Shown here: positions 1,505 to 56,165 of the stretch, piece by piece
Numbering within the stretch: the stretch's first letter is position 1
How the letters are laid out: each line of letters begins with the position of its first letter
Assembly (NCBI RefSeq): GCF_006345805.1
Contig: NC_042997.1
Coordinates: 140,554,001-140,618,000 of the forward strand
DNA from: Octopus sinensis
Taxonomy: Eukaryota
Direction of reading: 5' to 3'
DNA: 64,000 nt
Translations under genes and position numbers: made by a program
The notes under the pieces: generated by a model
What the model saw: only the letters and a program-made list of their open reading frames with translations
What the model was told of the DNA's origin: nothing
The model's database searches: none

Positions 1505-1846
1505 CAGTTCTATATTTAAGAGATGAGGAATTATGTACATTATTTACATTTGACAGATATTTGTCCTCATCTTGGGGTTAGTAGCCCGCGCTCTTAACCA
1601 CTACGCCATATGCCCATGGGCAATTATGGAGTGAATTTTAGGGCTTATAAATCTAATATTTTTCTATCCTTCCTTAATACCGGTTCCCATTTGCTGCTCA
1701 TATCTGCACTCAGACTGCCTTGTAAAATGTAACATTTACCCAAGACACCTGAAGAGGATTGGAGGGTATATCAGCCGAAATGTTGTGTCAACAACAAAAA
1801 AGATAAGGACAAATATCTGTCAAATGTAAATAATGGAAATAATGTA
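1505..1846. mobile_element. Small non-autonomous Penelope-like insertion with hammerhead, nested in a SINE
   Basis: Direct repeat caccaatatta at 1494-1504 and 1847-1857; inverted segments ~1534-1574 / ~1800-1848; motif gacac-CTGAAGA-...-GAAA-tgtt-gtgtc at 1744-1789. Confidence 0.7.
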
Positions 1847-4163
1847 CACCAATATTAGTTGTCAATCAGTGGTGGTGAATAAACATGGACACAAAGACAC
1901 ACTCACTCACACACACACACACACACACACACGATGAGCTTCTTTTGGTTTCTGTCTACTAGATCCACTCACAAGGCTTTGGTTGGCCTGACACTACTGT
2001 AGAAGACACTTCCCCAATGTACCATGTAGTGGGACTGAACCATAACAATGTGGTTGAGAAACAAACTTCTTACTACACATCCATGCCTGATGGGGAAAAA
2101 AACTAAACATTTTGGGATGAGAAGGAGATAATTCAGAAGTATCCACATTTAGCAGAGGTCATGTTGCCTTGAATGAATGAATACATCAAAAGGAGTGATG
2201 CCTTTTTAATATTACAGTTTACAAGGCAACCTCAATGATGATAGTGCTATGACAAAATGCCCTTAGTACATCCTAGAATGTGCTTGGCAAATGAAAAGAG
2301 TTAACGTGGGACTGAGAGGACCCTTTATACTTGTCAAGGGCATGGCAACTTCTCTAGTGCTGAGGTCACATTTAAATTAAATGTTGCCAGTACACTCTGT
2401 AAAGTGGTTGGTGATAGAAAGGGCATCCAGTTATGGAACAAATGAATAAGATACAGCCCTCTAACCTGTCCAGGAGAGTAGCTCTGCATAAGAACTGACT
2501 CAGATTTTAACAAGCTGATCTATATCAACATAAAAAGTGGCTGTAAAATGATGATGATGATGATGACAGTGACGATGACAACGATGATAAATACATACAC
2601 ATGCATATTTATGAAAATATGTACACATGTATACTTTTGCTGGAGGTGAAACAACAAACTTACAGCTCATCCATGGTGTGTGTGTGTGCATTTGTGAGGA
2701 GAGTGTCTCAAACATGAAGATAGCTATGGTAAATTCTATCTTTTTCTCTAAAAGAAAAATTTGTAGGGGGTCCCTTTATTGAGAAGAGTTGTGGGCAACA
2801 TTAAAAAAACAAACAAACCAAACTGGACAAGACATCATCATCATCATTGTTTAATGTCTGTTTTCCACACTCGCATGGGTTGGATGGTTTAACTGGGGAC
2901 TCATAAGCCTGTAGGCTGCACCAGGCTCCAATCTGATCTGGCAAGGTTTCTACAGTGGGATGCCCTTCCTAACACCAACCACTCCGAGAGTGTAGTGGGT
3001 GCTGTTTACGTGCTACCAGCATGGGAGCCAGTCAGGCGGCACTGACATCGACCACATTCAGATGGTGCTTTTTACGTTCCGCTGGCATGTGGAGCCAAGT
3101 AGGCAGCACTGACATCCACCCATGTTTGAAAACAACGTTCGTATTTTGCACTTTTGGTGTGGTTTAAGATATGTTTTACGTAATACATAACACAATTAGA
3201 TTATTGACATCAATCAGTGGTTGCATATTTTGGCATTCCAACAAAAAAACATAAAGGGATTTATCCTGCAAGGTTGAACTGCAATCAAAGGTATACGTGA
3301 AGAGAAATTTAACACATGATATTGCCAAGAATGTAGATAAAGTAAGCGAATGCAAATATTCATTCTTCAGTGATGTGACAATACTAATAATGATGTATAT
3401 ATATAATATGTACTGCTATTGTTATTTATACGTTGACATTAAGAGAGAAGAAACATATAAAGTGTAGATTTTATCCTGAAATATTTCTTGGGGAAGTCAG
3501 TTGAGTGGTAGAAACCTGAGTGCCACTCAAAAATGTCCTGCTTCGTTTAGATATTGCTTTGTATGTTTTAAGTTCAGATCTTTGTCTTTTTTTCTTTTTA
3601 GGATTGATGAAATAGACACCAGTTGTATATTGAAGGTGTTTTAATAAAATATGCACTCTTAGCCACAAAGAAGACTGTTTATAAGAAGCAAACTTACTTT
3701 TCATGTATCTTTATGAAGTGAATACGTAGCCTCATCCTCATGAGTAAGTCTTTAAAAAAATATGTGTACCATGCAACCATGTTGTTGTGTACCTGAGCAG
3801 CATATACAATAAGCTGAGTATTATTACAAATTTGTATAGGGCAGCGAGCTGGCAGAATTGTTAGCGCCCTTGGCAAAATGCTTAGTAGCATTTTGACTAT
3901 ATTCTGAGTTCAAATTTCACTGAGGTTGACTTTGCTTTTCTTCCTTTCGGGTTCGATGAAAGAAGTATCAGTTGAGCACTGGGGTCAATGTAATCAACTT
4001 ATCCCCTCCTCTGAAATTGCTGGCCTTATGGCAAAATTTGAAATCATAAGTACAAGTTTATATTTAATGCAAATGACATGGAAATTTAAACCACAATAAT
4101 TCTTCAGTTTTCTATTTCTTCAAAAGCTCCTAGTAAATATAAAAGGACACTGGAATTAACACA

Positions 4164-4360
4164 CTATATTTTAACATGTATAAGGAACCTTCATGTATAA
4201 AGAACCCTCTTGTATAAGGACACCCTAATTTTGGGGCTTAAAATTTGGAAAAAAAAAGTTTTGTAAGGGATTATAATACTAGCTTTGTATAAGAAACTCC
4301 CATATTTTTTTAACTTAATTTTTTGACAAAATAGGGTCCCTTATACATGTTAAAATACAG
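4164..4360. mobile_element. Tc1/mariner-pogo-like MITE
   Basis: TIR ctatattttaacatgtataagg / ccttatacatgttaaaatacag, followed by TA on the right. Confidence 0.65.
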
Positions 4361-5299
4361 TAATTTGGCTGATGCTGGATTAAATTTATAATTTGGAGAA
4401 ATGTTTTTATTGATATATCTGTAGAAAGTTGTACAATGAAATGACTGACAGAGAAGGAAAAAACTATGAGAGAACTCTATCTCTTTGTGAATTAAAACTA
4501 ATCTTCCATTTTGATAAAAAATATAATAAAATTAGAATTAAAAAAAATTTTCTAGACTATGTAAACTCAAATTATTGCTTTCTTAGTAAAATATACATAC
4601 ACCTTTTATAGTGCATATCATTAAGTACTGAAATACTCCCACTACTGAAGGTAGCTAGGAAAAACACACCATTTGCAGCATATGGCAGACTTCAACTTTT
4701 GTTGAGCTCTACTCATTATTGCATATAGTTGCTGTTTATCTGAACTGACTACACATAGACTGTGAGACCAATCTCTCATTCCTTCAAACATAATACTTCT
4801 TTTGCTATAAAGCTGCATGTCATGTGATTATTATATAGTTAGGACATTGATTTTTTTTTTTACATCGTTACAGTGATTTTTTTTTCCTTGTGCTGTCTTG
4901 CTGGCTTTGTGAGTCATCTACAGCAGTATCTGTAATTGCAATGACGTTGGCAGAATGCCATTTCTGTGACACGCAATTTGGTGTCCAAGTTCACTTGGTC
5001 ATTTGATGGGCATGGCCACTTTTAAAGATGGCATCGCTCATCAGCAAAACAGTCATGTTTTAGAATATATTTCCCTGTAAAAATATTTAATTGTTGTTTA
5101 GAACATATTTAAATTTCAAACCTCCACACTAATACACCTGCACTTGTTTTGTCTGTGTGTGTATGAGTGTATATATATGTATGTGACTGAACAAGATATA
5201 GCTATCTTCTATGTAGGAAAGGTCACACTATTTCACTGTATTTTTCACACTCAAGATAAATGTAGTGTTATTGAACAATAAACTTATAAACTTAAGAGT

Positions 5300-5336
<37 letters not shown>

Positions 5337-5967
5337 GACTGCAAGCAGTTATTGTCTTAATGTTGATGGTGTTTAATGTTGTTTACGCAATATATACATC
5401 ACTTGTAACAACAAAGTCATAGAGATTTCTTATGCTGGCACAACTTCAAACATTTTGGGAAGGCACGTCGCAGAAAATTATTTGGGAGGCCTTTCTATCT
5501 TCCACTCTAGTAATAGTAATGATAATAATAATAATAATCCTTTTTACCTTAGGCACAGGGCCTGAAATTTTGTAGGAAGTGGATAGTCAATTACATCAGC
5601 CCCAGTACTTAACTGGTTCTTATTTTATTGACTCTGAAAGGGTGAAAGGCAAAGTTCACCTCTGACCTCTGTGGAATTTGAACTCAGAATGTAATAGTAA
5701 CAACAATAACAACAACAACAATAATAATAGTAATAATAATAATAATAATAACCCTTTCTACTATAAGCATACAAACTGAAATTTTGGTGGGAAGAGGTTA
5801 AGCTGATTACATCAATCGCAGTACTCAACTGGTATTTAATTTATCAATCCTGAAAGAATGGAAGACGAAGTTGACCTCAGTGGAATTTAAACTCAGAACG
5901 CAAAGACAGAAGAAATGAAAGCATTTTGCCCGGCATGCTAACAATTCTGCCAGCTTGCTGCCTTCAA

Positions 5968-6122
5968 TATAATAATAATAATAATAATGATAATAATAAT
6001 GATAATTATAATAATAATAATAATGATAATAATAATCATAATAATGATAATAATAATCATAATAATGATGATGTTAATAATGATAATAATTATAATGAGA
6101 ATAACAACAACAATAATAATGA
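5968..6122. repeat. Interrupted (AAT)n microsatellite
   Basis: Directly visible; source of the poly-Asn ORF 5926-6189. Confidence 0.95.
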
Positions 6123-6277
6123 TTTCAAATTTTGGTATAAAGTCAGCAATTTTTTAGGGGAAGTTGAATACATTGACCCCTGTACTTGACTGATACTTAT
6201 TTTATTTACCCTGAAAGGCAAGTTGGCCTCAGTGGAATTTGAACTCAAAACATAATAGTAATAAGAATAATAATAAT

Positions 6278-6855
6278 AGACAAGATGAAGAGCGCGATGT
6301 AATAACAATAGATATTTTTTTGGTTGAACAATATTTCAACAGCAAGCCTGTCTTTGGTCGAGTTCAAAATAGAAAGTAATAAAAATTCAAATCTAAAGTA
6401 TGAATGAGAGCAACCAGTGTCCACACATTGATGGAATGACATCATCAGTCTTTAAGTTTCAATTTTATAACAGGCGTAAAGAAAAAGACAGAAAAAAGAG
6501 GAAAGGAAAAAGAATATTTAATCAAACAGTTTTGTGTAAATTTGATCAAATATTCTTTTTTTCTTTCCTCTCTTTTTTTTTGTCTTTTTTCTATCTTTTT
6601 CTTTTCGCCTGTTATAAAATTGAAACTTAAAGACTGATGATGTTATTCCGTCAATGCATGGATGCTGGTTGCGCTTATTCATACTTTAAATTCGAATTTC
6701 TATAATTTTGAATTTTTATCATTTTCTATTTTGAACTTGACAAAGATAGGCTTGCTGTTGAAATATCATTCAACCAATAAAATATTGCTATTGCATCATG
6801 CTCTTTGTCTTGTCTGTTTACCTTTGTGAAGAGTTATTTCAATCCTTTTAAAATA
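6278..6855. repeat. ~540-bp imperfect palindrome plus short tail, between (AAT)n tracts
   Basis: 6278-~6520 is the diverged reverse complement of ~6548-6815 (e.g. catcatcagtctttaagtttcaattttataacaggcg / cgcctgttataaaattgaaacttaaagactgatgatg). Confidence 0.85.
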
Positions 6856-9261: not shown

Positions 9262-9667
9262 ACACAAATATGAGAGAGAATCCACTATGTGGACGCCCTT
9301 ACGCTAAAGAGAGATCCGCATGAGTCTCAACCACTAAAAATTGTTTTCAATAAAAATTGAAAATGAAAAATAACAAAAAAATATAGATTAACCCCATGGG
9401 GTTAATCAATATTTTTGTTATTTTTCATTTGTCCTGCTTGCTTACGTTCATAGTGTGCTAAATTTTTCTTGAGAACAATTCTTAGTGGTTGAGACTCATG
9501 CGGACCTCTCTTTAGTGTAAGGGCGTCCACATAATGGATTCTCTCTCATATTTGTGTATTAATAATATTTACTGAATCTCAGTTTTTTATGTGCCAAACC
9601 ACTGGTGTTAAATTGATGTTATTAAATTAACATCCAATTTTTTCACCCTCATTTTGATTTTAATTCT
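9262..9667. repeat. Palindromic insertion plus tail, between TA/CA tracts, interrupting a SINE
   Basis: 9262-~9360 is inverted relative to ~9460-9557; centre gattaaccccatggggttaatc (9386-9407); tail 9558-9667 then (TA)n. Confidence 0.85.
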
Positions 9668-9676
9668 ATATATATA

Positions 9677-9708
<32 letters not shown>

Positions 9709-14322: not shown

Positions 14323-14385
14323 TTAAATAACGTTTTATTTCCATTAATTTTCCAAGTAGATCACAGTAGCTCCAAGATAAAATAA

Positions 14386-14889: not shown

Positions 14890-15523
14890 TAAAATAATCA
14901 AAATGAATCACAGTAAAAAAGACGAACACTCAAGATAAACTAGCATTTCACATTGTGATGATATAAAACAAAATGATTTAGGTGTTGTTCGTAATTAAAA
15001 TGAATGTATCAATATGACAACAGGTGTACGAGAACCGTTTTGTCACAATACGTACATATCTACATAAATGTCTCTCTTCTACGTAATATACGAGAGTATG
15101 TAAGGGTCAAAGCTCACTGGTTGTGACGGCAGCCTGGCTTAATTAAATTTGCAGCACGAAGTTTTCTGTTGTCACAGCTTACGTCTTTTCTCCAACTTCT
15201 GCTCCCCACCCCGAAAATTCCGTTGTCATGAATGCGCTTGGCGTTGATTACACCCGTTATCCTTGTTGCAGTTACGGTGATAAGTTACATAGAAGTAAAT
15301 AAAAAATTGTTAAATGTAAATTTATTTAAAATATCAATATCTTCCACTTGTTCCAGATGTTTATTCATTGTGTAATTTGGTTGTTTACGTTTTGTCGGCA
15401 ATATGGAGCTTTTTTATTTATTAATCTGTACTGTTTTACATATGGAAACAAATTAATGAAAGAAAACATAAGAACTTCATGTCATTGTTATGTGTGTATA
15501 TATATATATATATTATAACTAGA

Positions 15524-16004
15524 GGATCTTTTCCTTTTGAACGGCACTTTTCAACACAATTTCTAGTTAACTAAACACTTTTAAACTTCGTATAACTAGT
15601 AGAATGTGTTTATAAAACATCATTTTTTCTTGGCTTTATTGAGAAAATTTCTATAGGTTGTAAGATATTTCGTCTGAAATTTCGAGCATTTCGGCAATTT
15701 TAACCAATCGCTGGAGTCCATTTAGGTTAACAGCATTCCGTGCTGTATGAATATGTCCCTCCATTAAGAAACAGATTAGGTTTATTTACATTTGTGAAGG
15801 AAAAAGATACCCTTCCCCTAACCCTAACTAACCCTTGGTTAAAATTGCCGAAATGCTCGAAATATCTTACAACCTATAGAATTTTCTCAATAAAGCCAAG
15901 AAAAAATGAAGTTTTATAAACACATTCTACCAGAAAACGAAGTTTAAAAGTGTTCAGTTAACTAGAAATTATGTTACAAAGTGCCGTTCAAAAGGAAAAG
16001 ATCC
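15524..16004. mobile_element. Merlin-like foldback MITE
   Basis: GGATCTTTTCC...GGAAAAGATCC with ~170-185-bp inverted arms; perfect 8-bp TSD taactaga at 15516-15523 and 16005-16012. Confidence 0.85.
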
Positions 16005-16482
16005 TAACTAGATAGATTTAGAGACTGCCTCAACGTCAGTAACTGGATCTGCAAATCTGAGATAGGTCTGAATTCCTACAGAGGACGACACAGTAAGACG
16101 TAAAACTAAGAACATTGTGCAGCTGTATTCTTAATCCTCATTTGGCGAAGCGACGAGAGAGAGTCCAACAACATGCATGCATGTATCAGTTAATCAATTG
16201 ATCAACCGGTCATAAAATGCGGACGAGTTTGCCTCTCCAGAGCTGACTTCACAAATCACATATGTAAACACGATAAAAAGCCTAAGGTTGAATTCACCCA
16301 GTTTCCAGCAGTTAATCCTTTACGCAAATTATGTAGTAGAGAATTGTCCGGCCGATCTGGAGCCACAAACCTTAAAAGTACGCAAGGTGCTATACAGAAC
16401 GAGTACCTGATCGCAACACATAAATATGAGCGTCACACCTGCAGCAAAAAGTTAAGTTGCCTGCTGGCTTTAAAAGCCATTG

Positions 16483-16893
16483 GGATCTTTTCGGTTTGAC
16501 CGGCAGTTTTTTTGAAATAATCTCCACGTAACTAAACACTTTAAAACTTCGTATACTGGTAGAATGTGTTTATAAAACATCCTTTTCCCTTGGCTTTATT
16601 GAGAAAATTCGATGGTTTGTAAGATACTTGTTGTTTTTTTCTTCAATTTCTGCATTTTCAACCAATCAATGACGTCTATTGAGGTGAAAACATTCTGTGC
16701 CGTATGAATATGTCCCTCATTTAAGAAACAGATTGGGTTTATTTACATTTCTGAAGAAAAAAAAGATACCCTTCCCCCACCCCTAACCTTAAAACAGATT
16801 GAAATGCAATAGATCGATACTAGGGTCATAATTATGGGTGACAATTTCATATGACACCGCTAGAACAAACTGCCGTTCAAACCGAAAAGATCC
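16483..16893. mobile_element. Merlin-like MITE, same family as 15524-16004 but with short TIRs
   Basis: TIR ggatcttttcggtttga.cggcagttt / aaactgccgttcaaaccgaaaagatcc; degenerate TSD agccattg / agtcgttg; internal sequence homologous to 15524-15830. Confidence 0.8.
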
Positions 16894-22235: not shown

Positions 22236-23540
22236 CTCACCCAGAAGTGCTTGGTTCCATGAGTTGTGTATAAAACAGTGGAAAGAAATACAAGAAAACG
22301 AGTTTTCAATGAACTGCAATACTTTATTTATCTGCTAAATGAATTTGTACAGTGACCCAGTTGGATACATCATGAAGATAACACTCTGTAGAAAACATTC
22401 ATAGTCTGCTTCTCAACTCGGTTGAAACTTGGCAAACAGAAACAAAATGACATAACATAGCTCACTGAAAATTCTCACCTTGCTGGCGAAAACAGGAAAA
22501 ATTCTTTTATTTATTGATGATTAGAGGCTTAAAACAGCATTTGATTTTCCTGTGCTGCTTGGTCTATCACACAACACATTTGAATACAAAACTGTACCCC
22601 ACATAAAACTAAACCAATCCAAGAAATAGACTCAGTCAAGTATTACACCATTACATGACTGGTTTATGTGACCAATCGTTAGGAACATGCAGGATGAGCC
22701 GATTTCCAACTATTTTCATTCTTTAAGCCTAAACAATCTGACAATTAACAGTCTCGCTACACTTCTACAATGCACAAGATGTTTTAAGAATATTTTAATA
22801 CAGATCCAAGTTATATTTAATTATAAAAATAAAATAAGGTATTTTGAAACTTCAAATGGCTATGGGTGTCCAGTAGAATAAAATAGGAATTAAAGTAAAA
22901 AATAGAACAAACATTTGAATATGTGTGTGTATGTATATGTATATGCGTGAAATGGTCATGATAGAAAGTAATTGAATCTCTAAAAATTTTCTGTATGATG
23001 TGTGAGCCCAGGGTAAAAGACCAGCACACAGACTAAAGTTAAGATATAAGTACTTTATCAAGAATACACCGAAGGTCAAAATCTTGGAAACTAGATGGAA
23101 AAAATCTTATGCAGGAAAGCAATGCTTGATGGCTGGAGGGAATTGGAACAAAGTTGCATCAAGCATTCACTGCTCAAAAGAGATGGTTTGTAAGGGTCTT
23201 GATGTGAATTGCCTGAGTATGTTAGCGCAGAGCCCAGTTTAAGCTGTAACAATAATACACAATTATATTTGATGTAGAGGCACATACCTTAGTGGTTAGG
23301 GTGTTGAACTCCCGATCATAAGATTGTGGTTTTGATTTCTGGACTGGGTAATGTATTGTGTTCTTGAGTAAGACACTTCGTTTCACATTACTCCAGTCCC
23401 TTCAGTTTGTAAAATGAGTAATCCTGTTTAATCTAGGTGTACCTGTTGATGAAGACTTCGCCGAGCAAATTATTTTATTTGCTAAAAAAAAGTCTGACAC
23501 CATGGTATCAGGAGATAGATGGTAAATGTTTTTATTTTTC

Positions 23541-24155
23541 ATTCCCTTTGAGTTTTTATCCCTAATAGTGGTTTGGACTTTAGCTGTTCCTTCTAGCGTG
23601 AAAGGAAACCTATGATGGATACCTCTTATGTTTAAATGTACACTGTATTTATATGAATAATATATAGTCTATTGGCTTATTTTTCTACACACTAGGCCGC
23701 AGGCAGTAAACATTTCTAAAATCTTTATTACCCTGATATTGATTATATATGTATAGTTAAAATTTATAGAAAAACAAAAGTCGAAGACAGGTGTATGAAA
23801 AAGCCTGTAGATTTTGCAGTCAAGCATGGGGAATATATATATATATATATATTCCCTTTGAGTTTTTATCCCTAATAGTGGTTTGGACTTTAGCTGTTCC
23901 TTCTAGCGTGAAAGGAAACCTATGATGGATACCTCTTATGTTTAAATGTACACTGTATTTATATGAATAATATATAGTCTATTGACTAATTTTTCTACAC
24001 ACTAGGCCGCAGGCAGTAAACATTTCTAAAATCTTTATTACCCTGATATTGATTATATATGTATAGTTAAAATTTATAGAAAAACAAAAATCGAAGACAC
24101 GTGTATGAAAAAAACCTGTAGATTTTGCAGTTAAGCATGGGGAATATATATATAT
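23541..24155. repeat. Tandem duplication, 2 x ~310 bp
   Basis: Units begin attccctttgagttt at 23541 and 23851 and end in (AT)n; a handful of substitutions. Confidence 0.95.
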
Positions 24156-25189
24156 GTAGTTCAAATTTACAGTAAACAATAGATGAAGACAGGTGAGGGA
24201 AAAACAAGCAGGTGTATTAGTTTGAAGATCAGGAAGAATGGAAAAGTCTTTGATGTTTTGGGTGTATGTTCTTAACAGAGAGGGTTGAGAGGGGAAAAAA
24301 TGGAGAGAGAATGAAAAAGTGGAGAGAGAAAAACATGTGTTGGGATTAATGGTTCAACACGATAAGTTGTGTGTGTGTGTAAAGTGTTATTGGTAAAGGA
24401 TTATAAATCCAGATCAAATACTTGGCAAGCTCTCTGTTATTACAAATACACTAGACTAACAGAATGTTTTCAGATTGGTATAGAACTCCAGGAAATCCTA
24501 TGATAAGGTCCAAAGTTGATGTCCATCACCAGTTGATTTTTGTGAATCCATAGTTTTACTCCCCAGTTAAACTGGTCTTTTTCACAGAGTGACATACAAG
24601 AAAAGGTATAATTAATTGTCTTTGAATAATTCTTTATTTGTGCATCTAGATGCACCAATAAAGAAAACTCATATATATTTGTGTGTGTGTGTGTACATAT
24701 ATATTATGTATGTGTGTATGTATATGTAGGTGTGTATATGTATGTATGCTACAACTATTTTGTTAAGCGTGTCTCAGTATCAGTCATTTGCATTAAAAAA
24801 AAATAATTAAAAAATCTCAGATGAGAGTGCACATCAACAAAACAATAGCAAGTAGGCAGCTGTAAAATACATTAACTGCAGCATTTTTCTAAACAAGTCA
24901 TTATCAAAATATTGCATGAAAACCTTTTCAGGTTTGAAAAAACTACTAAGTCCTGTAAAGTAGCTGTTAATTGGAATGCTATTATTGAGCTGCACACTTT
25001 TTAAAGGTTAAAAGGAAACACAAACTTTCGAAAAAGCATGAAAACTTTTTGAATATATTTTTTTAATTGTTTATTCCTGTGAATTGTTCTGCAAACTTTT
25101 GATGAAGGAACACTTTGAGTGACCCCTAATCTAAAAGGGGAAAAAAAATCATGTCACCTATTTACTTGGTTTATTAAAGTTACAATGAA

Positions 25190-25520
25190 GGCACATGGCA
25201 CAGTGGTTAGAGCATCGAGCTTATGATCATGAGGCTGTGAGTTCAATTCCCAGACTGGGCTGTGTGTTGTATTCTTGAGCAAGACACTTTATTTCATGTT
25301 TCTCCAGTTAACTCAGCTGTAGAAATGAGTTGTGACATCACTGCTGCCAAGCTGTATCAGCCTTTGCATTTCCCTTGGATACCATCAGTGGTGTGGCGAG
25401 GGGAGACTGGTATGCATGGGCGACTGCTGGCCTTCCATAAACAACCTTGCCCAGACTTGTGCCTCAGAGCGTAACTTTCTAGGTGCAATCCCATGGTCAT
25501 TCATGACTGAAGGGGGTCTC
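25190..25520 (+). mobile_element. tRNA-derived SINE family D (Meta-domain-like). Partial copies: ~23278-23425(+), 54153-54432(+), 27900-28025(-)
   Basis: Head ggcacatggc..agtggttag, B box gagttcaattcc, body gttgt.ttcttgagcaagacacttt...cagctgtagaaatgagt. Confidence 0.75.
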
Positions 25521-31210: not shown

Positions 31211-31610
31211 ATGAGCACTTCCTTTCCCTCCAAATCCAGTGGCTGTGTGGTAAGAAGCTTGTTTCCCCCCACCTCGTGGTTCTGGGTTTGGTCCCACTGA
31301 ATGGCACCATGGACAAATGTCTTCTACTATAGACTCGGGACCAACCAAAACCTCGTGAGTGAATTTGGTAGATGGAAACTGAAAGAACCCTGTCATGTTT
31401 GTATGTATGTATATATATATATATATACTACAAAATTAGAGAATGGAGAAACATACTTAAATCAATAAAACATCAACTATCCGATGATACCCAATCAATA
31501 CTTTAATACACCATTACATATGAGTAAAGGCATTATATAAAATGAGATATACAGTAATAGTAAAAAGATAAAGAGATATAAGTAAAAAATTTTCAAATAT
31601 AATATGCAAT

Positions 31611-31736
31611 TAAATCAAAACTGACAGCTGTTTCGGCAGTGAGGGCAGTCATACCTCATTTAACCTCTTAGCCATAAAGGCAGGTATAAATGAGGCATTA
31701 ACAAGGATGCCCCACGGCCTCTTCAGAGAATTAAAT
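31611..31736 (-). ncRNA. Hammerhead ribozyme copy in the inverted 5' pseudo-LTR
   Basis: Reverse complement of 34975-35100. Confidence 0.8.
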
Positions 31737-31845
31737 TAAATTTGTTATAATTGTGAAAAATATAATATAACCATATACATATAAATATAAAAATAATATT
31801 GATATAGTTAGATATAACAATGACAGTGGTAAGAATAGTAATCCT

Positions 31846-32865
31846 ATGGGTTGGTCTAGGAATAGGATTTTTACAAATAACAATAATTCTATAGGCAATC
31901 CTATTTCTGATAAGGATACACTATGGTTGATTATCCCATATGCAATGCAGATTAAAACAAACATAGTGAGAGCTTTGCATAATGTTATATTTAGGCATTT
32001 TGGTAAGGATAAGAATAAATTTAGTCCTTTAATTAACAACAGTACTGTTAGAGTGGGATATAGCATTACCCATAATCTAGCCACCATTATCTCCTCTTTT
32101 AATAACAGGAAACTGGATCACTTCTATAAGGATAGAAAATTGAATTTAGACCAGGGAAATGTGCCCCTCTTTAATAATAATAGGAACAGAAACTTTCTTA
32201 GAACGAATGTGAACAACCCCCTTACTAATAATGAGTGCACCGTACCTGTCAGAGATAATATAAATGTAATAGATCATACTACTACTACCAATACTAGTAC
32301 TAGTGATAGGAATATAGCCGATAATGTGAAATTAACTCATTCGTTGATTTTGGGTTTGGATGATGATAACAATTGTAACACTTATAATGTGAATGGTAGT
32401 ATAGGGGTGGAGACCAATCTTAGATTTCCTCATTCTGTTAATCTTTGTAATTGCAGAAACAAAAATAAATGTGTATTTGATAATCAATGCCTCAGGAAGG
32501 AGGTAGTTTACCAATGCACTGTAGATACACAATTGAGTAGTAGGGTGTATATCGGGGCAACTATGAATAGCATAAAACAAAGATTGAATTATCACAGATA
32601 TACTTTTAGAAATAAAAATATAATGTACTCTACAGGGCTAAGTGCTTACATTTGGGAACTTAAAAGTAAGAACTTAGATTTTAGATTAAACTGGAAAATA
32701 CTAACTTCAGCACCTGTGTATAATGGAAAAAATAAAAAATGCTCTCTATGTATTAATGAAATTTTTTTCATTATTAAAGCGGGTCGGCAAATTATTAACA
32801 ACATTAATGAAAAAAACTTCTTTTGCATTCATAGGCTACCGTTCACCTTTTCTAGATTCAAATAG
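31846..32865 (+). CDS. Penelope/Naiad ORF remnant: RT-thumb/linker plus GIY-YIG endonuclease, RT core absent
   Basis: 339 aa without stops. WLIIPYAMQIKTNI...RHF...TVRVGYS..NL..IISSFN resembles the PLE thumb. CNCx5Cx5C, VVYQ...YIG, KQR..H, L..YIW.LK, WKIL, CxLCxxE and CxH are Naiad-type endonuclease motifs. The frame stays open upstream to the inversion junction at ~31795. Confidence 0.9.
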   Translation: MGWSRNRIFTNNNNSIGNPISDKDTLWLIIPYAMQIKTNIVRALHNVIFRHFGKDKNKFSPLINNSTVRVGYSITHNLATIISSFNNRKLDHFYKDRKLNLDQGNVPLFNNNRNRNFLRTNVNNPLTNNECTVPVRDNINVIDHTTTTNTSTSDRNIADNVKLTHSLILGLDDDNNCNTYNVNGSIGVETNLRFPHSVNLCNCRNKNKCVFDNQCLRKEVVYQCTVDTQLSSRVYIGATMNSIKQRLNYHRYTFRNKNIMYSTGLSAYIWELKSKNLDFRLNWKILTSAPVYNGKNKKCSLCINEIFFIIKAGRQIINNINEKNFFCIHRLPFTFSRFK

Positions 32866-34974
32866 AACTTAGCACTTCCACTATTATTTTTAACTCCCTT
32901 CTTTAACTAACTATACCTGTGGTCTTCTATAATTCTTAAGTATACAAATTATAAATTTATAATTTTATAATTTTATAATTTTTATAGCTACATTTGTATA
33001 ATAATAATAGATGTGTCTAGTATTATTTGTTTCTTGTTTTTTGTATGTGGGTTTTTGTTTGTTTTTTAAGGGAAATGCAATATGACACGATATAACATAT
33101 TCACTTTGGTATTTGCCTTGTAATATGTGATTTTTGAAGTTTTCTAATATTGCATAGTATATTGCATAGTATATATGTATATCTTGGTTAGATACCTAGC
33201 TCTAGATAATGTAAGGATATTGTATAATATGTAATATATGAGAGCCTTTTATAAGTTTGGTGTGTTTAGGTAGAGAATATAGGTTTTTTGTATGTGTTTT
33301 TTGGAAGGTTTTTATTGTATATTTGGTCTTTCTTTGTACTCACCTTAATTTGTATCTTATGCTACTCACTAATAAACCTTTTTCATTTTTTTCATTTTTT
33401 TCATTTTCTCATTTACATACATTTGGCTTTATAAATATTACCAGCCTTATATATTTAGTTTATATCTATAGTCCTCTGGATCTGTACTTTAAATTATCCT
33501 TCCATACATATTTACTTTCAACAATATAACATATATTCACTTTATTTATTTTTTATTTTTATTTTATTTTATTTTATTGTAATGTTATCAATCTCTGCAT
33601 TTAGTCTTCTAATTATTTATTTATTTGCCTATTTAAGTGTAGATGTTTACATACATATCAAGTCTTCTAATTTGTTATCTATTTATTTTTTACTTATTTA
33701 CTTATACTAGGGTAGTTTTATATATACATATCTATCATTTATTTTTATTTAATTTTAATAATATATGAATACATATATACTGGTTTGTACTTATAATATG
33801 TGTATAACCGTATTTATTCCTTAGTTTTTATTCCTTCTTATTTATCTTTTCACATTTTACCTTAAGTATTTATAATATAAATTTTTTAAAAATTTCTGTG
33901 ATGTTCTCATAAGCGTTTACATTAGTACTTCCCCTTCTATTTTTTAATGCCTAAACTGGTATATTATGGCATTAAATTTATTAAGTAAATAAGTGATTTA
34001 TTTATAATATATAAATTAATATATATTTTATATTTTATAATTTAGCGTACTTGGAATCATAACAAACTTACGATAAACCTAACAACCGTATGTTTACTAT
34101 GCAACAAACCGGTGTTATAAATTTTAAGTTACCCATGAAATAATTTTCTGACTTAGTAACATATTGATATTTAAAAATATATTTATATCTAAATTAAATA
34201 TTTTATGAAAGGCATGGGTGGTTCTTTTTTCGTTATTTGAAGCACAGTTATAATTTTGAAGGACTAAATGGTAGCATAGCTGCTTCCCTTTTTGTTTATC
34301 TATGTTGCTTGTGATTATGTATGTGTATATGTTGCTTGTGATTATGTATGTGTATAAGTGTATGTATATACATATAACTATGTGTGTATGTGCGATTGAT
34401 CTGTAGATGCGTGTGTGAATATTGGCGTTCCGTGACTAACCAACCGTATAATTTTCTTTTGTGATTTAAATTTCAAACCAATAGCCAATCGAATTAATCT
34501 AAATTTTCTTTACCTAGTGATCAGCATTTCTAAAACTCATAGTTATTTCGATCTTGAAAGGATGGACTTGGTGCTAACTTAACTGTATCTATTATTATTA
34601 TTATTATTTTTATTATTATTATTATTATTAATATTAATAGTAATTTTTATTAACTTTCATAGCTTTAGAATTTTATGAACTGAACCATGGTTTTAATTAT
34701 TATTTTTCATCTCCCTATGTTTTAGTTTTTTTTAAAAAAACTATTAGCCAAATATGTATAATATCGGTACTTATTAATATTAGTATATACACTGATATAT
34801 ATTTTGTTTTATTTTGTTCTGTTTACCTTCCTTTATTGTACCAATAAGTATTATATTATATAAGTGTAGCATTATGATGTATAAGTTTTTATATTTTTTA
34901 TATTTTACATTTTTATATTTTTATATTTATATGTATATGGTTATATTATATTTTTCACAATTATAACAAATTTA

Positions 34975-35100
34975 ATTTAATTCTCTGAAGAGGCCGTGGG
35001 GCATCCTTGTTAATGCCTCATTTATACCTGCCTTTATGGCTAAGAGGTTAAATGAGGTATGACTGCCCTCACTGCCGAAACAGCTGTCAGTTTTGATTTA
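34975..35100 (+). ncRNA. Type I hammerhead ribozyme in the Penelope 3' pseudo-LTR
   Basis: CTGAAGA (34985-34991), long stem II, GAAA (35077-35080), palindromic ACAGCTGT stem III, GTC triplet (predicted cut after 35088). Stem I is imperfect. Confidence 0.8.
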
Positions 35101-35446
35101 ATTGCATATTATATTTGAAAATTTTTTACTTATATCTCTTTATCTTTTTACTATTACTGTATATCTCATTTTATATAATGCCTTTACTCATATGTAATGG
35201 TGTATTAAAGTATTGATTGGGTATCATCGGATAGTTGATGTTTTATTGATTTAAGTATGTTTCTCCATTCTCTAATTTTGTAGTATTAATTTACGGTAAT
35301 ATTATTACCTTTACCCATATAATACAATGGATGAACTGATTGTTTGACAATTTTTAACATCTATGTATTAATCTTGTTGGGTACCTATCTGGCAGTATAT
35401 TGGATATATATTATCCCATGGTGGGTTGAATTTTCAACCCCTATCT

Positions 35447-35490
<44 letters not shown>

Positions 35491-38400: not shown

Positions 38401-38702
38401 TCTCATTTGAGTTATTGCCTCCCTTGATGTAACACATGGCCAAAACAGCCAAGCCTTAGGGACATCAAGAATTATAGCATAATTCTATTCAAATTAGCAA
38501 CTCTCTCTCCCTGCCACCTGCTCTTGATGTAAATGTATTTGCTGTAACAGTTCTTTAAATTTGCTCCAACTGTATTTCTCTGTACAACTGTCTGTAATGA
38601 CAAAATTTCTTAAATATCATATAGCATTTTAACCTAACTTTCAAACAACAAATATCATAAATTACAGTTTTATTTACTTTAGATATTTTGTTTCATTTTC
38701 AG

Positions 38703-38828
38703 CATTCATAGTCTTCATCAACTGTGCAAACGTAAGGTGGGCTGCCAGGGTGCAAGGAATTTTCACAGCAACCAAAATATTTGCTTTACTTATTGTTGTT
38801 GTTGTTGGATTTTATACATTAATATCAG
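38703..38828 (+). CDS. Internal exon of an SLC7/LAT-type heteromeric amino-acid transporter light chain (about TM4-TM5)
   Basis: Acceptor tttcattttcAG and donor G|GTAAGT; 126 bp, phase 1-1. Translates to FIVFINCANVRWAARVQGIFTATKIFALLIVVVVGFYTLIS(G), matching the INC..V.WA.RVQ..FT..K pattern of LAT/y+LAT/b(0,+)AT proteins. Paralogue cannot be assigned. Confidence 0.93.
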
Positions 38829-43320: not shown

Positions 43321-43365
43321 ACACAACGTTTCGGCTGATATACCCTCCAGCCTTCATCAGGTGTC
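43321..43365 (-). ncRNA. Minimal type I hammerhead ribozyme with intact core
   Basis: Minus strand reads gacac CTGATGA aggctg gagggtatat cagcc GAAAC GTT gtgt; stems I and II pair. Confidence 0.8.
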
Positions 43366-43619
43366 TTGGGAAAATTCCGAACCTGGGATCTCATTCCTAA
43401 GGTATTTTTTGTCGTTGTTGTTGTTGATCAGCTATACCCAATTTATCAATATCTCCTCGTGTCACAGCTTTGCGATGTTCGTCTACCCTTATTTTGAGGG
43501 GGTGGCATGTTTCACCTTTGTATAATCTACCACAGCTTTTGTATAACCTACCACACGCAGTCTTTGGTCATATTCTCTTCTGTTGGTGGTTTTACTTGAA
43601 GGAGATATTTGCAAAGTAT

Positions 43620-43720
43620 GACACTTGATGAAGGCTGGAGGGTATATCGGCCGAAACGTGTTAACAGCAAACAAGATGAGGAGAAATATCCATCAAATGT
43701 AAATAATGTAAATAATGTGG
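43620..43720 (+). mobile_element. Inverted partner copy of the same hammerhead family (core variant TTGATGA) with pLTR-like tail
   Basis: gacacTTGATGAaggctggagggtatatcggccGAAACgtgttaac..., followed by the aagatgagga..aatat..tcaaatgtaaataatg tail also seen at 1800-1848. Confidence 0.7.
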
Positions 43721-44271: not shown

Positions 44272-44432
44272 GTAAGTAACGACACTCTTGTTTGAAGTTA
44301 GCAATTACAGACATGCATTTAGGAAAACGAATATGAAAACTGCTTAGTTTATTCCTCTGCACCTATATATCTACATGTGTGTGAGAGCACTCATGTGAGT
44401 GTGTATATATGTTTGTTTACAATATATTACTG

Positions 44433-44688
44433 GCAGAAGCAGATCTTAGCTATCACTCCAATGCGCAGGTGCACATGGCTGACGTGAGCCTACTAGCTCG
44501 AAACCGGTCAGTCCCACAATCCTGTCAGCTATTGGAGAGTAATAGGGGTTCAATCTCCCTGCTAGCGATGTATTGTATATAAGGGTGTGGAGCTTGCACC
44601 AAAAACCAGCTGGTGGAGAATCCACCTGGGGTTAAACTAGTAGTAACATTCATCTGCCACTTAGATATGGCTACTTGCTTTACTGTTT

Positions 44689-44690: not shown

Positions 44691-44723
<33 letters not shown>

Positions 44724-45774: not shown

Positions 45775-45816
<42 letters not shown>

Positions 45817-45820
<4 letters not shown>

Positions 45821-45975
45821 GAATTTACAAAAAAAACGAAAGATGAAGACGGGTGTGTAAAGAACAAACAGATGTATTAGTTTAATGCTTGGGAAGTGAG
45901 AAAGTCTTTTACGTTTCGAGCCTATGCTCTTCAGTAGAAAGGAACACAAAAATAAACAGAGAGAGAAGATAGAAA
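45817..45975 (-). mobile_element. Probable pLTR remnant with a decayed hammerhead; related copies at ~24156-24300, ~23752-23800 and ~24062-24110
   Basis: Minus strand: cttt CTACTGA a gagc atag gctc GAAAC GTA aaag. All copies start next to a TA run with ...aatttac/ta...gaagac(a/g)ggtg. Confidence 0.5.
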
Positions 45976-48808: not shown

Positions 48809-48842
<34 letters not shown>

Positions 48843-50172: not shown

Positions 50173-50479
50173 AGAATTTAGTAAATAGTGTCTTTTGGAT
50201 GAGATTGCAAACTCAAGAACTTTTGGAAATATTGATTTTATGTCGGTGACATTAATAAACGATGATAGCCCAAATTTTCAGCATATATGGCTACCAGCTC
50301 TTTAGCATTCAGATTATTCTGCCAAATTTGATGCTATTTATTCACATTGTTTTGAATTAATCATGTTCTATCTTATAGCTTCAAGATTTCAATGATGTGA
50401 TTGTTTATCTTTAGAAGGACATTGTTAGATAGGTGTGAGAGACTGGATATGGCCAGTTTAAATGTTAAAGAGTCAAACT

Positions 50480-51001
50480 TCTGTCTTCTTCTTTGACCCC
50501 CTTCGGTCATGAATGACCATGGGATTGCACCTAGAAAGTTACCCTCTGAGGCACAAGTCTGGGCAAGGTTGTTTATGGAAGACCAGCAGTCGCCCATACA
50601 TACCAGCCTCCCCTCTCCATGCCACTAATATTATCCAAGGGAAAGGCAAAGGCTGATACAGCTTGGCACCAGTGATGTCGGAGCTCATTTATTAACGTGC
50701 AAGTGGCTGAGCACTCCACAGACATGTGTACCCTTGACGTAGTTCTCAGGGGGATACAGCATGACACAAAGTGACAAGGCTGGCCCTTTGAAATACAGGT
50801 ACAACAGAAACAGGAAGAAAGAGTAAGAGAAAGTTGTGGTGAAAGAATACAGCAGGGTTCACCAACATTCCCTGCCGGAGCCTTGTGGAGCTTTAGGTGT
50901 TTTCGCTCAATAAACACTCACAATGCCCGGTCTGGGAATCGAAACCACGATCCTACAACTTTGAGTCTGCTGCCCTAACCACTGGACCATTGTGCCTCCA
51001 A
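50480..51001 (-). mobile_element. tRNA-derived SINE family C, full length with TSD. Other copies: 27513-27818(-), 59033-59355(+)
   Basis: Head gaggcgcaatggcccagtggttag...ggtttcgattccc; TSD taaagagt(c/t)aaact at 50466-50479 and 51002-51015. Confidence 0.85.
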
Positions 51002-53159: not shown

Positions 53160-53196
<37 letters not shown>

Positions 53197-53275
53197 AGCT
53201 CACTGTTTTCTGCTGCATGTATATGCGTGTGTAAGAGTTAGTACCTCCCTGACTATTCTGGTGTCTGTACATATG

Positions 53276-53319
<44 letters not shown>

Positions 53320-54658
53320 CTTCAGTGGCTTTACTCAGCTATGTGTGTATGCACATATACATAAAAACACAGACTCACACAAACATATACATATCCATAT
53401 TTAGGTTTGTATATTTATCCTTTATTTTTACATGTATAAGTATGTATCTGGCAGTCTTTACACAGTCTCCCTCTGTGGTTGAGCACATTGCTTCTCAACC
53501 ACATGGTCTTGAGTTCAGTCCCACTGTGTGGCGCCTTGGACAAGTGTCTTCTACTATAGCCTCAGACTAACCAAAGCTTTGTGAGTGGATTTGATAAATG
53601 GAAACTGAGAGAAGCCTATCAAGTACACACACACACACACACATGCCTCTGCCACGTACAAACATCACATTCTGTCAGCCTGCCTGTCATTACACTACAT
53701 TTCTTATGTATCTATAGCTTACCTTAGGTTCAGTAGACACACACACACAGGTGTATATGTTTATGCATTTATATGTGTGTGTGTTCGTATGTATATATAT
53801 GTATATGTATGTATGAAATTATGCTCATAGTATATTAGTGCAAATTTAATGCACAAATTTATAATTTAATTAATTATTCAGTATTAATGGAAATAAATGG
53901 CTGTAAGAAGTAAAGCTTACTAATTTGGTAATAATGAATAATTATTAACCTTGTGTTTTCCATTTTCTTTTTTTCATTTAATTGGATATGAACTATATGC
54001 TTAAAATATACCAATTGTTTTAAGGGAATTTGATTCCCCAATAATACTAGGTATCAAACCAGTATTCCCTTGGATGTAACCATCCCTTTTATGAGGTTAA
54101 CATGCCCTCTAAATAAATCTATACATATTTATATGTATTTGTGTGTGTGTGAGGGCACATGGCCTCATGGTTTGGGATGTTGTACTCATGATCATGAGAT
54201 CATGATTTCAATTCCTAGACCAGGTGGTGTATTGTGTTCTTGAGCAAAACACTTCATCTCACATTGCTCTGTGTTCACTTTGATTCCTGATGCCTGGTTA
54301 CACAGTGTATCACTTATGGCAACAGCGATTTGATGAAGAGAGTGAGCTAATGTGCAGCACGAAACAAATTATTTGTGCAGGTCATTTGGCAAGCTGAACA
54401 CTCGTACATCATCTTCGACGGGAGAGTCCGTCATATATTGAGAAATAGGGAGAGAGATAATGATGCAGATAAACACAATTAGGTTTGACATTAGGCAGCA
54501 TCACTATCTCCACATCAGTTCACCTGAATTTCTCTTATAGTCACCCTTGACTTTGTGGACTGAGACCTGGATAAAGTATTCAGCGTTTTGAGTTCAGTTT
54601 ATTTGAGCACGACAATGTTTTTTCCTGTACTGAGCATATCTAGCTGTTTACTGTCGTC

Positions 54659-54694
<36 letters not shown>

Positions 54695-55087
54695 GGGTGA
54701 AGTGGAGGTGTTGCTGTCTCCTTGCTTTGACTTTGTGTGGTAGTTGTAAGCAAGTATAATCGTCATTCGAATGGCATCCTTTATGTCCAGTCTTCTGTGA
54801 ATGATATGTCTGGTCATGGGGAAATATTGCCTTATTTGGAAACAGGTGAGAGTTGGTGACAGGAAGTGCATCCAGTTGTAGAAAATCTACCTCAATAAAT
54901 TCCATCCAGCCCATGCAAGCTTGGTAAAGAGGACATTAAAATGATGATGGTGGTCATGTTCATATGTATGTATCTGGCAGTCTTGTTTATGGGAAACATT
55001 TTGAATATGCAAAAGAAGCTCCTATTCTATTATGCCAGCTACAGTCTAGTGATATTGACTAGTGAACCAGTTTTGGGGGTTGCATTA

Positions 55088-55120
<33 letters not shown>

Positions 55121-55125
<5 letters not shown>

Positions 55126-55625
55126 ATAAAAAGGGGTTTGTGTAATTGTGTATAGAGGGATATATATAATTCAAAGAAATTCCAACTCTGTTTTTTATGT
55201 TTTATTTATATTCTTTATAATATTAATGTAGAATATAGAATATATAGTATAAATAATATATATATATAGTAAAATGAAATGAAGTATTGATTGTCTTATT
55301 GAAAAGATGAAATATTGAATATAAAATATTAAGGGACTAGTATACTTTCATGCGTTATAGCAGTCTTCAAGGTGACAGGAGTGTTTCAACTGGTATATAC
55401 CAGAGTAAACACATAAATGTGAAACAAGGTGGAAAAAATAGTACTTGGATCCAGAGGTAGAGGAATATGCTTTATAAAAAAGCAGCAAAAATGTCACAAA
55501 AACTGTTACTCAGTTTCATGTTCCTGTTCATCAGACAGTTTTGTTTAGAAACAAAACTTTCTGACAAGTGGGAATGTGAAACTCTGAGTAAAATTTTGTG
55601 ATATTTTTGCTGCTTTTTAATAAAG

Positions 55626-55659
<34 letters not shown>

Positions 55660-56165
55660 GTATCAATAAAAAGGGGTTTGTGTAATTGTGTATAGAGGGA
55701 TATATATAATTCAAAGAAATTCCAACTCTGTTTTTTATGTTTTTTTATATTCTTTATAATATTAATGTAGAATATAGAATATATAGTATAAATAATATAT
55801 ATATATAGTAAAATGAAATGAAGTATTGATTGTCTTATTGAAAAGATGAAATATTGAATATAAAATATTAAGGGACTAGTATACTTTCATGCGTTATAGC
55901 AGTCTTCAAGGTGACAGGAGTGTTTCAACTGGTATATACCAGAGTAAACACATAAATGTGAAACAAGGTGGAAAAAATAGTACTTGGATCCAGAGGTAGA
56001 GGAATATGCTTTATAAAAAAGCAGCAAAAATGTCACAAAAACTGTTACTCAGTTTCATGTTCCTGTTCATCAGACAGTTTTGTTTAGAAACAAAACTTTC
56101 TGACAAGTGGGAATGTGAAACTCTGAGTAAAATTTTGTGATATTTTTGCTGCTTTTTAATAAAGT
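55121..56165. repeat. Tandem duplication, 2 x ~540 bp
   Basis: Units begin tatcaataaaaaggggtttg at 55121 and 55661; bounded by (TA)n; near-identical. Confidence 0.95.
55470..55625. repeat. Imperfect palindrome with a decayed hammerhead in each arm
   Basis: Minus 55498-55542: aaaactgt CTGATGA acaggaacat GAAAC tga GTA acagtttt. Plus 55552-55598: caaaacttt CTGACAA gtgggaatgt GAAAC tctga GTA aaattttg. Repeated at 56009-56165. Confidence 0.7.

What the first reader, a model, noticed from the sequence alone, without database searches (positions are those of the whole stretch)
1505..56165. A population of small, non-coding palindromic retro-insertions with hammerheads, mostly at microsatellites
Seen: the layout 'inverted partial copy + direct copy + extra tail' recurs with mostly unrelated sequences at 1505-1846, 6278-6855, 9262-9667, 43321-43720 and 55470-55625, and at full scale in 31425-35452. 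Most abut (TA)n, (AAT)n or (ACC)n. Hammerhead or decayed hammerhead cores occur at ~1749, 31623-31726, 34985, 43321, 43624, 44479, ~45910, 55498 and 55552, from at least five sequence families. Inference: these are retrozyme-like non-autonomous Penelope derivatives mobilised in trans, targeting simple repeats and seeding dsRNA hairpins and self-cleaving motifs in introns. This is my best candidate for an under-described system in the window.
Basis: partly seen in the sequence, partly recalled or inferred. Interest (0 to 1): 0.8.

Follow-up and report, generated by a model that had tools for sequence, protein, structure and literature searches.

The report
Penelope debris hiding a SINE-headed element
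These hammerhead-bearing palindromes are insertion scars of several Penelope-like retrotransposon families, a known phenomenon, but one family carries a tRNA-type SINE head in its 3' UTR and its copies begin at that head far more often than elsewhere, so it likely spawned a SINE-like element copied by the Penelope enzyme.

Summary
The palindromes and hammerheads (HH) are real: 19 descriptor hits in 664 kb against 0 in each of 20 shuffles. They are not one non-coding population.

Three families are 5'-truncated, 5'-inverted copies of coding Penelope-like elements (PLEs): A (1505, 43321; Poseidon-type), B (31425; young Hydra-clade, 960-aa ORF elsewhere) and C (6278; Neptune-type). 43425-43628 is GIY-YIG coding sequence. 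D (9262) is a true 530-nt tandem retrozyme with a covarying HH and PLE-type ends; G looks similar; E and F have no parent found. Microsatellite targeting holds for B-F, not for A or G. All this is a known kind.

What is new is in family A. A tRNA-type head, homologous to an abundant local SINE head, lies about 40 nt after the ORF stop in 18 of 20 coding copies. Of 72 unselected arms, 55 begin at that head (3.8% per nt, against 0.6 inside the head and 0.4 upstream), then run through HH and tail. Best reading: Pol III transcripts from the captured head were retrotransposed by the PLE protein, giving a Penelope-mobilised SINE. A hairpin-caused stop is the rival. No RNA evidence was obtained.

The parts
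1505..1718 (-). Family A copy 1, direct arm: end of GIY-YIG ORF and 3' UTR (1718-1616), tRNA-type head +1..+47 (1615-1569), internal deletion, then pLTR end and tail (1574-1505)
1569..1615 (-). 5' part of the tRNA/SINE-type head (A box; the B box is deleted in this copy)
1734..1846 (+). Family A copy 1, inverted pLTR arm with decayed minimal HH (core at 1749)
1494..1504 (+). Target-site duplication, left copy; the right copy is 1847-1857 (11 bp)
   Evidence: printout; read from sequence
6275..6855 (+). Family C (Neptune-type coding PLE): inverted arm 6275-6546, direct 3' UTR/pLTR from about 6541, 37-nt tail 6819-6855, in (TAA)n
6731..6773 (+). Family C minimal HH of the U3-A8 core variant, slightly decayed; mirror copy starts at 6367 on the minus strand
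   Evidence: 18 arms; variant described in PMC4209133
9262..9666 (+). Family D (530-nt tandem non-coding retrozyme): inverted arm 9262-9396, direct arm 9397-9666 starting at the predicted HH cleavage site, then (TA)n
31425..31795 (-). Family B inverted pLTR arm, 100% identical to 34916-35286; HH core at 31726; (TA)n to its left
31795..32865 (+). Family B 5'-truncated ORF: residues 605-960 of the 960-aa Hydra-clade RT/GIY-YIG protein
32866..35451 (+). Family B 2-kb AT-rich 3' UTR, pLTR 34916-35286 with type I HH (core 34985, about 90-nt stem II), 166-nt tail, then (TA)n
43321..43409 (-). Family A copy 2, pLTR with intact minimal HH (core 43360); 3' end cut 4 nt past the cleavage site, against (ACC)n
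43425..43628 (-). Family A copy 2, GIY-YIG endonuclease coding remnant (head and 3' UTR deleted in this copy)
43620..43718 (+). Family A copy 2, inverted pLTR arm (HH core with C3U at 43625)
44412..44688 (+). Family G, probable tandem non-coding unit of about 350 nt with decayed HH (core 44479)
   Evidence: unit length read by eye
45816..45975 (-). Family F, abundant 5'-truncated (TA)n-inserted element with a minimal HH variant (U at core position 6 in most copies); no inverted arm here; decayed relative at 24144-24273
55394..55630 (-). Family E short palindrome plus 71-nt tail; HH cores 55534(-) and 55561(+); duplicated at 55933-56169
25186..25304 (+). Copy of the abundant SINE family whose head is homologous to the family A head (others at 23279 and 54150)

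Best explanation
The palindromes are insertions of at least seven hammerhead-bearing families with Penelope-type anatomy, three of them truncated copies of coding elements, and family A carries a SINE-type head in its 3' UTR from which short RNAs were likely made by RNA polymerase III and copied into the genome by the Penelope protein. Shown: inverted 5' arms of variable length, two fixed 3' ends separated by a tail, RT/GIY-YIG ORFs attached to A, B and C, no ORF attached to the D copies examined, the head in 18 of 20 coding A copies, and a 6- to 10-fold excess of 5' ends at the head. Inferred from PLE literature: the protein nicks both strands of AT-rich or microsatellite DNA and starts reverse transcription at two internal RNA sites, giving two cDNAs (direct arm and inverted arm) that join at their truncated ends. 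Inferred here: an ancestral A element captured a SINE head; Pol III then transcribed head, (TAA)n, HH and tail as a 250-330 nt RNA that kept the sites the PLE protein uses; the small palindrome at the head's 5' end let cDNA ends pair. D is a self-propagating tandem retrozyme, likely mobilised in trans by a (TA)n-targeting PLE such as a Hydra-clade element.
For: PLE identity: relatives carry RVT_1; GIY-YIG/RVT_1 clusters; Hydra motifs DKT, CxCX5C and (TA)n target match PMC8557442 section 11. Head: A box and B box at tRNA spacing, with T8 in 66 of 72 and G53-C61 invariants in 51-68 of 72 arms outside the search anchor; a profile of 35 local SINE heads scores 57 of 72 A heads at >=10 bits, reversed controls 0 of 72; that SINE's conservation begins at -2 in head coordinates (24 copies). 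5' ends: 55 of 72 arms at +13..-21; 3.76% per nt there, 0.62 inside the head (31 arms), 0.37 upstream; by eye about 24 of 100 listed matches run upstream and 25 of 100 end inside the head. Short copies continue into HH and tail in most of the rows displayed (output partly cut) and 33 of 55 have an inverted match directly upstream (no control run). TTTT, the Pol III stop, is present in only 7 of 46 copies. The (TAA)n tract is longer in short copies (median 46 against 26 nt, p=0.001). D: 523-530 nt units, arms longer than one unit, compensatory changes in HH stems I and II.
Against: No RNA start was observed. The head's 5' end overlaps the strongest cDNA hairpin of the region (-5.4 kcal/mol), which could stop or fold back reverse transcription on the long RNA. 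Family E also has a fixed 5' junction at a small palindrome without any tRNA head. Short and long A copies show no diagnostic differences and the same age (7.9% and 7.2%), so no separate SINE master lineage is shown. In the contiguous 664-kb census none of 4 A copies began at the head (3 long, 1 ending at +53), though 5 of 7 incidental copies elsewhere did. ARAGORN at default and Rfam do not call the head a tRNA; ARAGORN does so only at a relaxed threshold. No intact A ORF was found (best 83% aa, most with stops). D shows no significant similarity to the pLTR of A, B or C, so its partner is unidentified.
Confidence: 0.62

Rival explanations
1. All A copies come from the long Pol II RNA of the coding element. 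The pile-up of 5' ends is caused by the hairpin at -19..+12, where cDNA folds back or is trimmed; the captured SINE head is a passenger and never acted as a promoter.
For: Strongest DNA hairpin of the region lies there. Many junctions are fold-backs centred on it. No diagnostic sites separate short from long copies. Family E has a similar fixed junction without a head.
Against: 22 of 55 short arms have no inverted match upstream yet still end there. The fold-backs read as the exact complement of the head, not the native bulged stem. The wall at -6..-2 coincides with the 5' end of the homologous SINE. An RNA-hairpin stall would place ends near +10, not at -6..+2.
Confidence: 0.27
2. The long RNA is cut at the tRNA-like element by RNase P or a similar nuclease, and the 3' piece is the template for the short copies.
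For: tRNA invariant positions are kept; several 5' ends fall at 0..+2.
Against: The head cannot form an acceptor stem (2 of 7 pairs, read from sequence). Many copies keep 2-6 templated bases upstream of +1. ARAGORN default finds no tRNA.
Confidence: 0.06
3. One reading: all the small palindromes are one class of non-coding, non-autonomous retrozyme-like elements that target simple repeats.
For: True of D and probably G; E and F have no ORF link among copies examined.
Against: A, B and C extend into RT/EN ORFs; A and G ends are rarely at microsatellites; no shared sequence between most families.
Confidence: 0.04
4. The palindromes are DNA-transposon MITEs or chance hairpins.
For: Family E is uniform in size, and its two arms are only slightly more alike within a copy than between copies (0.90 against 0.88-0.89).
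Against: Arms vary from 331 to 3756 bp in B, tails are one-sided, ORFs are RT/GIY-YIG, D is tandem, HH stems covary, and HH density is far above shuffles.
Confidence: 0.01

Closest known systems
5'-truncated, 5'-inverted insertions of EN+ Penelope-like elements (Penelope/Poseidon, Neptune, Hydra clades; PMC8557442, PMC4209133, PMC11167929)
   Same: Inverted truncated copy at the 5' end, one-sided tail, two fixed 3' ends, minimal type I HH in the pLTR, (TA)n bias of Hydra. A, B and C are members.
   Different: B has a 2-kb 3' UTR, a 166-nt tail (30-40 nt is the quoted norm) and an HH with about 90 nt in stem II. A carries a SINE-type head in its 3' UTR, which I found in none of the papers read.
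Metazoan non-LTR retrozymes (PMC7229834; bioRxiv 10.64898/2026.07.22.740005)
   Same: D: non-coding tandem units, each with a type I HH with palindromic stem III; proposed to be moved by PLEs.
   Different: D's unit (530 nt) is longer than the 170-400 nt expressed RNAs reported in 2020. D copies are dispersed and carry PLE insertion signatures (inverted arm, tail, (TA)n). The parts of the preprint I read argue from co-occurrence and pLTR similarity, not from insertion anatomy.
Schistosoma Sm-alpha / Sj-alpha SINE-like elements (as reviewed in PMC6765202; original paper not held)
   Same: A Pol III-type promoter followed by a hammerhead in a short repeated element.
   Different: Sm-alpha is described as tandem, and the passages read name no mobilising enzyme. 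A-short is dispersed, has a minimal HH and PLE tail, and its coding parent still carries the same head.
TRIMp3 elements Cassandra, Helenus, Ajax (PMC10886601)
   Same: A non-autonomous retroelement with a small-RNA-derived Pol III promoter, proposed to arise by SINE insertion into a terminal repeat.
   Different: Those depend on LTR retrotransposons (PBS, PPT, fixed TSD); A-short would be the Penelope counterpart.

Membership tests
EN+ Penelope-like elements (A, B, C) | Single ORF with RT and GIY-YIG endonuclease | tested here: met
   B 960-aa frame; A RT end plus EN, relatives with RVT_1; C RT and EN motifs in translated copies. Direct Pfam scan of A and B gave no hit at E<=0.01.
EN+ Penelope-like elements (A, B, C) | pLTR with type I hammerhead | tested here: met
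   A, B; C, U3-A8 variant
EN+ Penelope-like elements (A, B, C) | 5' truncation with inverted copy and one-sided tail | tested here: met
Hydra clade (B) | DKT motif, RWK-like motif, CxCX5C linker, C-terminal EN, (TA)n target | tested here: met
   Motifs read (RWR for RWK) against PMC8557442 section 11; no tree built
Poseidon clade (A) and Neptune clade (C) | RT phylogeny and linker type | not tested
   Assigned from recalled motifs: no Zn-finger linker in A, CxxC linker in C
Non-LTR retrozymes (D) | Non-coding head-to-tail repeats, one type I HH per unit | tested here: met
   no contiguous PLE ORF in D loci L086-L110 and L136-L205
Non-LTR retrozymes (D) | Self-cleavage and circular RNA in vivo | not testable with these tools
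tRNA-derived SINE (short A copies) | 5' head with A and B boxes homologous to tRNA/SINE heads | tested here: met
   default ARAGORN and Rfam negative
tRNA-derived SINE (short A copies) | Copies begin at the head | tested here: met
   55 of 72 arms; 5 of 9 incidental non-window copies
tRNA-derived SINE (short A copies) | Transcription by RNA polymerase III | not testable with these tools
   Inferred from boxes, start position and lack of TTTT
tRNA-derived SINE (short A copies) | Own master lineage distinct from the autonomous partner | tested here: inconclusive
   No diagnostic sites in 87 aligned arms; longer (TAA)n in short copies
tRNA-derived SINE (short A copies) | 3' end shared with a LINE partner | tested here: not met
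   The shared 3' end is that of a PLE, not a LINE; it works like a SINE but is not a classical LINE-dependent one
MITE | Symmetric terminal inverted repeats, fixed length, fixed TSD | tested here: not met
   Variable arms and one-sided tails; E is uniform but asymmetric

The most novel reading that the evidence does not exclude
Family A-short is a Penelope-mobilised SINE: a PLE captured a SINE's Pol III head in its 3' UTR and thereby produced thousands of 250-330 nt head-hammerhead-tail insertions, showing a direct route from an autonomous PLE to Sm-alpha-like Pol III ribozyme elements. Family D adds insertion-site evidence that tandem retrozymes are copied by a PLE enzyme from uncleaved or circular templates.
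Probability: 0.6. Interest if true: 0.7.

Novelty: new variant of a known kind. Interest (0 to 1): 0.5.

Why it matters
SINEs are described as depending on LINEs, and Pol III-driven TRIMs on LTR elements. A Pol III-driven dependant of a Penelope element would fill the third slot and suggest how Sm-alpha-like promoter-plus-hammerhead repeats arise. A 260-nt natural substrate with two mapped 3' ends also makes the minimal cis requirements of PLE retrotransposition testable in the published in vitro system. Family D gives genomic signatures for the so far indirect claim that PLEs move retrozymes. Family B is a very young Hydra-clade element (arms 100% identical, intact 960-aa frames) suited to biochemical work. 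The rest of the finding is ordinary PLE debris.

Tried and rejected
1. HH cleavage sets the 5' end of insertions. The window copy of D folds back exactly at the cleavage site, and 4 more of 64 arms end at u0-2 (two re-read by eye). But only 1 of the 100 listed of 277 unselected matches did, and about 85 read through the site (counted by eye). Not supported as a rule; a small excess is not excluded. This agrees with PMC11167929 (HH not needed in vitro).
2. B as a Naiad: rejected, the EN is C-terminal.
3. Autonomous partner for D, E, F, G: none found. tblastn/tblastx hits in D and E loci lay outside the elements by coordinates, with L140 checked by eye. Cross-family alignment gave only C-F and C-H above all 100 mononucleotide shuffles, probably compositional.
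4. Apparent EN hits at 23256, 25179 and 54150 are a SINE, not PLE ORF.
5. Rfam: no HH or tRNA model hit. Pfam: no RT/EN hit on A or B directly.
6. RNA: no RNA holder listed on record. Four runs of guessed RNA, contigs only, were laid on one A copy; contigs cannot show starts or levels, so this is not used as evidence.
7. Single-strand folding of short HH regions was not significant except for B (z -4.2) and the E palindrome.
8. Earlier findings: two look-ups returned nothing.
9. PMC5785218 and PMC108972 are not held. Repbase/Dfam could not be searched, so A-short may be catalogued there under another label. No supplementary files were read; the family lists in the supplements of PMC8557442, PMC4209133 and PMC13282606 may include these families.


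Full report
Setting. The window is G000:C1:140554001-140618000 of a 2.7-Gb animal genome. About half of it matches other fetched loci. One probable amino-acid permease exon lies at about 38683-38828 (E 1e-4, below the Pfam cut-off; splice sites read), so the window may be intronic. The repeat landscape looks octopus-like; that is recalled, not tested.

Observation. Self-comparison confirms every palindrome listed. A strict type I hammerhead descriptor finds 3 hits in the window against a mean of 0.15 in 40 shuffles. A second descriptor finds 19 hits in 664 kb of contiguous genome against 0 in each of 20 shuffles. Rfam finds none. I then searched the genome family by family.

Family B (31425-35452). 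The ORF remnant matches a young family: 152 matches listed, with 960-aa open frames at two loci. [quoted passage not shown] In 10 fetched loci, inverted arms start at the same inner end and run 331-3756 bp in 7; one is a partial tandem. This is the textbook truncated and inverted PLE insertion.

Family C (6278-6855). Copies extend upstream into RT and EN coding sequence (3 shown, 2 translated). Its hammerhead is a minimal U3-A8 variant, seen in 18 arms. The outer end is at (TAA)n in 16 of 18.

Family D (9262-9667). Copies are head-to-tail units of 523-530 nt, one HH per unit, with two fixed 3' ends (about u162-175 and u261-280), variable 5' ends and inverted arms (38 distinct loci; 64 arms). 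Outer ends are at microsatellites in 58 of 65. Across 52 pattern matches, a few of them from other families, HH stem I pairs switch between C-G and T-A and stem II changes on both sides; these are a few inherited subfamily changes, not independent events. No PLE ORF adjoins D. D fits a non-LTR retrozyme and bears PLE insertion marks. Arms longer than one unit, and about 85 of 100 arms reading through the cleavage site (by eye), point to uncleaved multimeric or circular templates (inference).

Families E, F, G. E is a 240-bp palindrome with a 71-nt tail; 24 copies share a junction about 15 nt upstream of the HH. F is abundant (9 loci in 664 kb) and (TA)n-targeted (13 of 15). G appears tandem (by eye) and is not microsatellite-bound (3 of 25). 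No parent was found for these.

Family A (1505-1846, 43321-43720). The middle of 43321-43720 is GIY-YIG coding sequence of a high-copy, now broken family. Both window copies are truncated coding copies with internal deletions; 1505-1846 has an 11-bp target duplication. Outer ends are at microsatellites in only 10 of 78, against about 7% background.

The unexpected part. About 40 nt after the stop codon, 18 of 20 ORF-bearing loci carry a 75-nt segment with A and B boxes at tRNA spacing (two pairs of these loci share flanks and may be duplicates). Outside the search anchor, T8 is kept in 66 of 72 arms and G53-C61 positions in 51-68 of 72. Default ARAGORN and Rfam do not call it. A profile of 35 heads of an abundant local SINE scores 57 of 72 heads at 10 bits or more, and 0 of 72 reversed ones; the reverse search found one weak SINE hit. 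That SINE's conserved sequence begins at -2 in head coordinates.

A 26-nt pattern in the head has 3792 exact matches. In the first 70 loci fetched of the 100 listed, 55 of 72 arms begin between +13 and -21 and 17 run further upstream. The rate of ends is 3.76% per nt there, 0.37 upstream, and 0.62 inside the head in a second set of 31 arms from 30 loci, a few shared with the first set. Apparent ends at -7..-21 are mostly fold-backs. Most short copies displayed continue through (TAA)n, the minimal HH and the tail (output partly cut), and 33 of 55 have an inverted match directly upstream. Of 115 arms, 87 could be aligned (28 dropped because the pLTR start was not found): no diagnostic sites, the same age, and a longer (TAA)n in short copies. 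Incidental copies give 5 of 7 starting at the head but 0 of 4 in the contiguous census.

Mechanism. From PMC11167929 (parts 1-2 of 4 read): a Poseidon protein nicks both strands of AT-rich DNA and starts reverse transcription at two internal sites that define the tail; the HH is not required in vitro. This accounts for the two 3' ends and the inverted arm in all families (inference). For A, I infer that a captured SINE head gave Pol III RNAs starting near -5..-2 that kept the HH and both initiation sites, and that the A protein copied them (0.62). The main rival is a hairpin-caused stop on the long RNA (0.27), since the region's strongest cDNA hairpin lies at the same place and E shows a fixed junction without a head.

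Comparison with print. PMC4209133 (parts 1-2 of 4) already notes paired minimal HHs 100-700 bp apart on opposite strands and attributes most single motifs to truncated PLEs. PMC8557442 (passages and section 11) describes the anatomy and microsatellite bias. PMC7229834 and PMC7761336 (passages) name PLEs as likely mobilisers of retrozymes. bioRxiv 10.64898/2026.07.22.740005 (parts 1-3 of 5) derives vertebrate retrozymes from pLTRs. PMC6765202 and PMC8490949 (passages) describe Sm-alpha as a promoter-plus-HH SINE-like repeat. PMC10886601 (passages) describes Pol III TRIMs. PMC13282606 and PMC6962438 (passages) report PLEs and SINEs in cephalopods; the passages returned show no such link. 10.1101/596502 (passages) mentions short non-autonomous Penelope elements without detail. 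Ten full-text searches returned no paper that, from listings and the passages read, describes a tRNA-headed, PLE-mobilised element. The library omits most subscription journals and Repbase, and no supplements were read.

Verdict. The SINE-headed family A is a new variant of a known kind, supported by junction statistics and not yet by RNA data. Interest 0.5.

Noticed in passing
window 38683-38828 (+): Probable exon of an APC/SLC7 amino-acid permease (Pfam AA_permease_2, E 1e-4, below cut-off) ending at a GT donor; the only exon candidate among 100 frames scanned of 199.
   Followed up: partly
window 55088-56202, 59416-61705, 23541-24158: Three near-identical tandem duplications (97-99.7%); two are clearly bounded by (TA)n runs. 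Recent local duplication or assembly artefact.
   Followed up: no
window about 55330-55372 (-): A further decayed hammerhead-like motif of another family, apparently cut on its 5' side next to the family E insertion.
   Followed up: no
window 57098-57265: Family H: short palindrome plus tail, 5 loci in 664 kb, other copies ending at (TA)n; no hammerhead seen in the part present.
   Followed up: partly
window 34985-35100: Family B hammerhead folds with about 90 nt in stem II (z -4.2), too long for usual descriptors; such motifs may be undercounted.
   Followed up: partly
L056 2189-9853; L059; L053: Family B forms palindromes with arms of 2.4-3.8 kb at 98.7-99.7% identity.
   Followed up: no
L111-L135 (family E): Commonest HH core is CCGACGA (13 of 31 matched arms); CTGATGA and CTGACGA forms may be CpG decay products, so a U4C core could be ancestral.
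   Followed up: partly
664-kb census around the window: Several further HH families occur, including two close pairs, one on opposite strands; the window is denser in these families than its neighbours.
   Followed up: no
window 15523-16005 and 16483-16787: Another repeated element with a partial inverted duplication next to (TA)n; not classified.
   Followed up: no
L135 1886-2242; L269: A diverged sister of the family A pLTR (74-83%); whether it carries the head is unknown.
   Followed up: no
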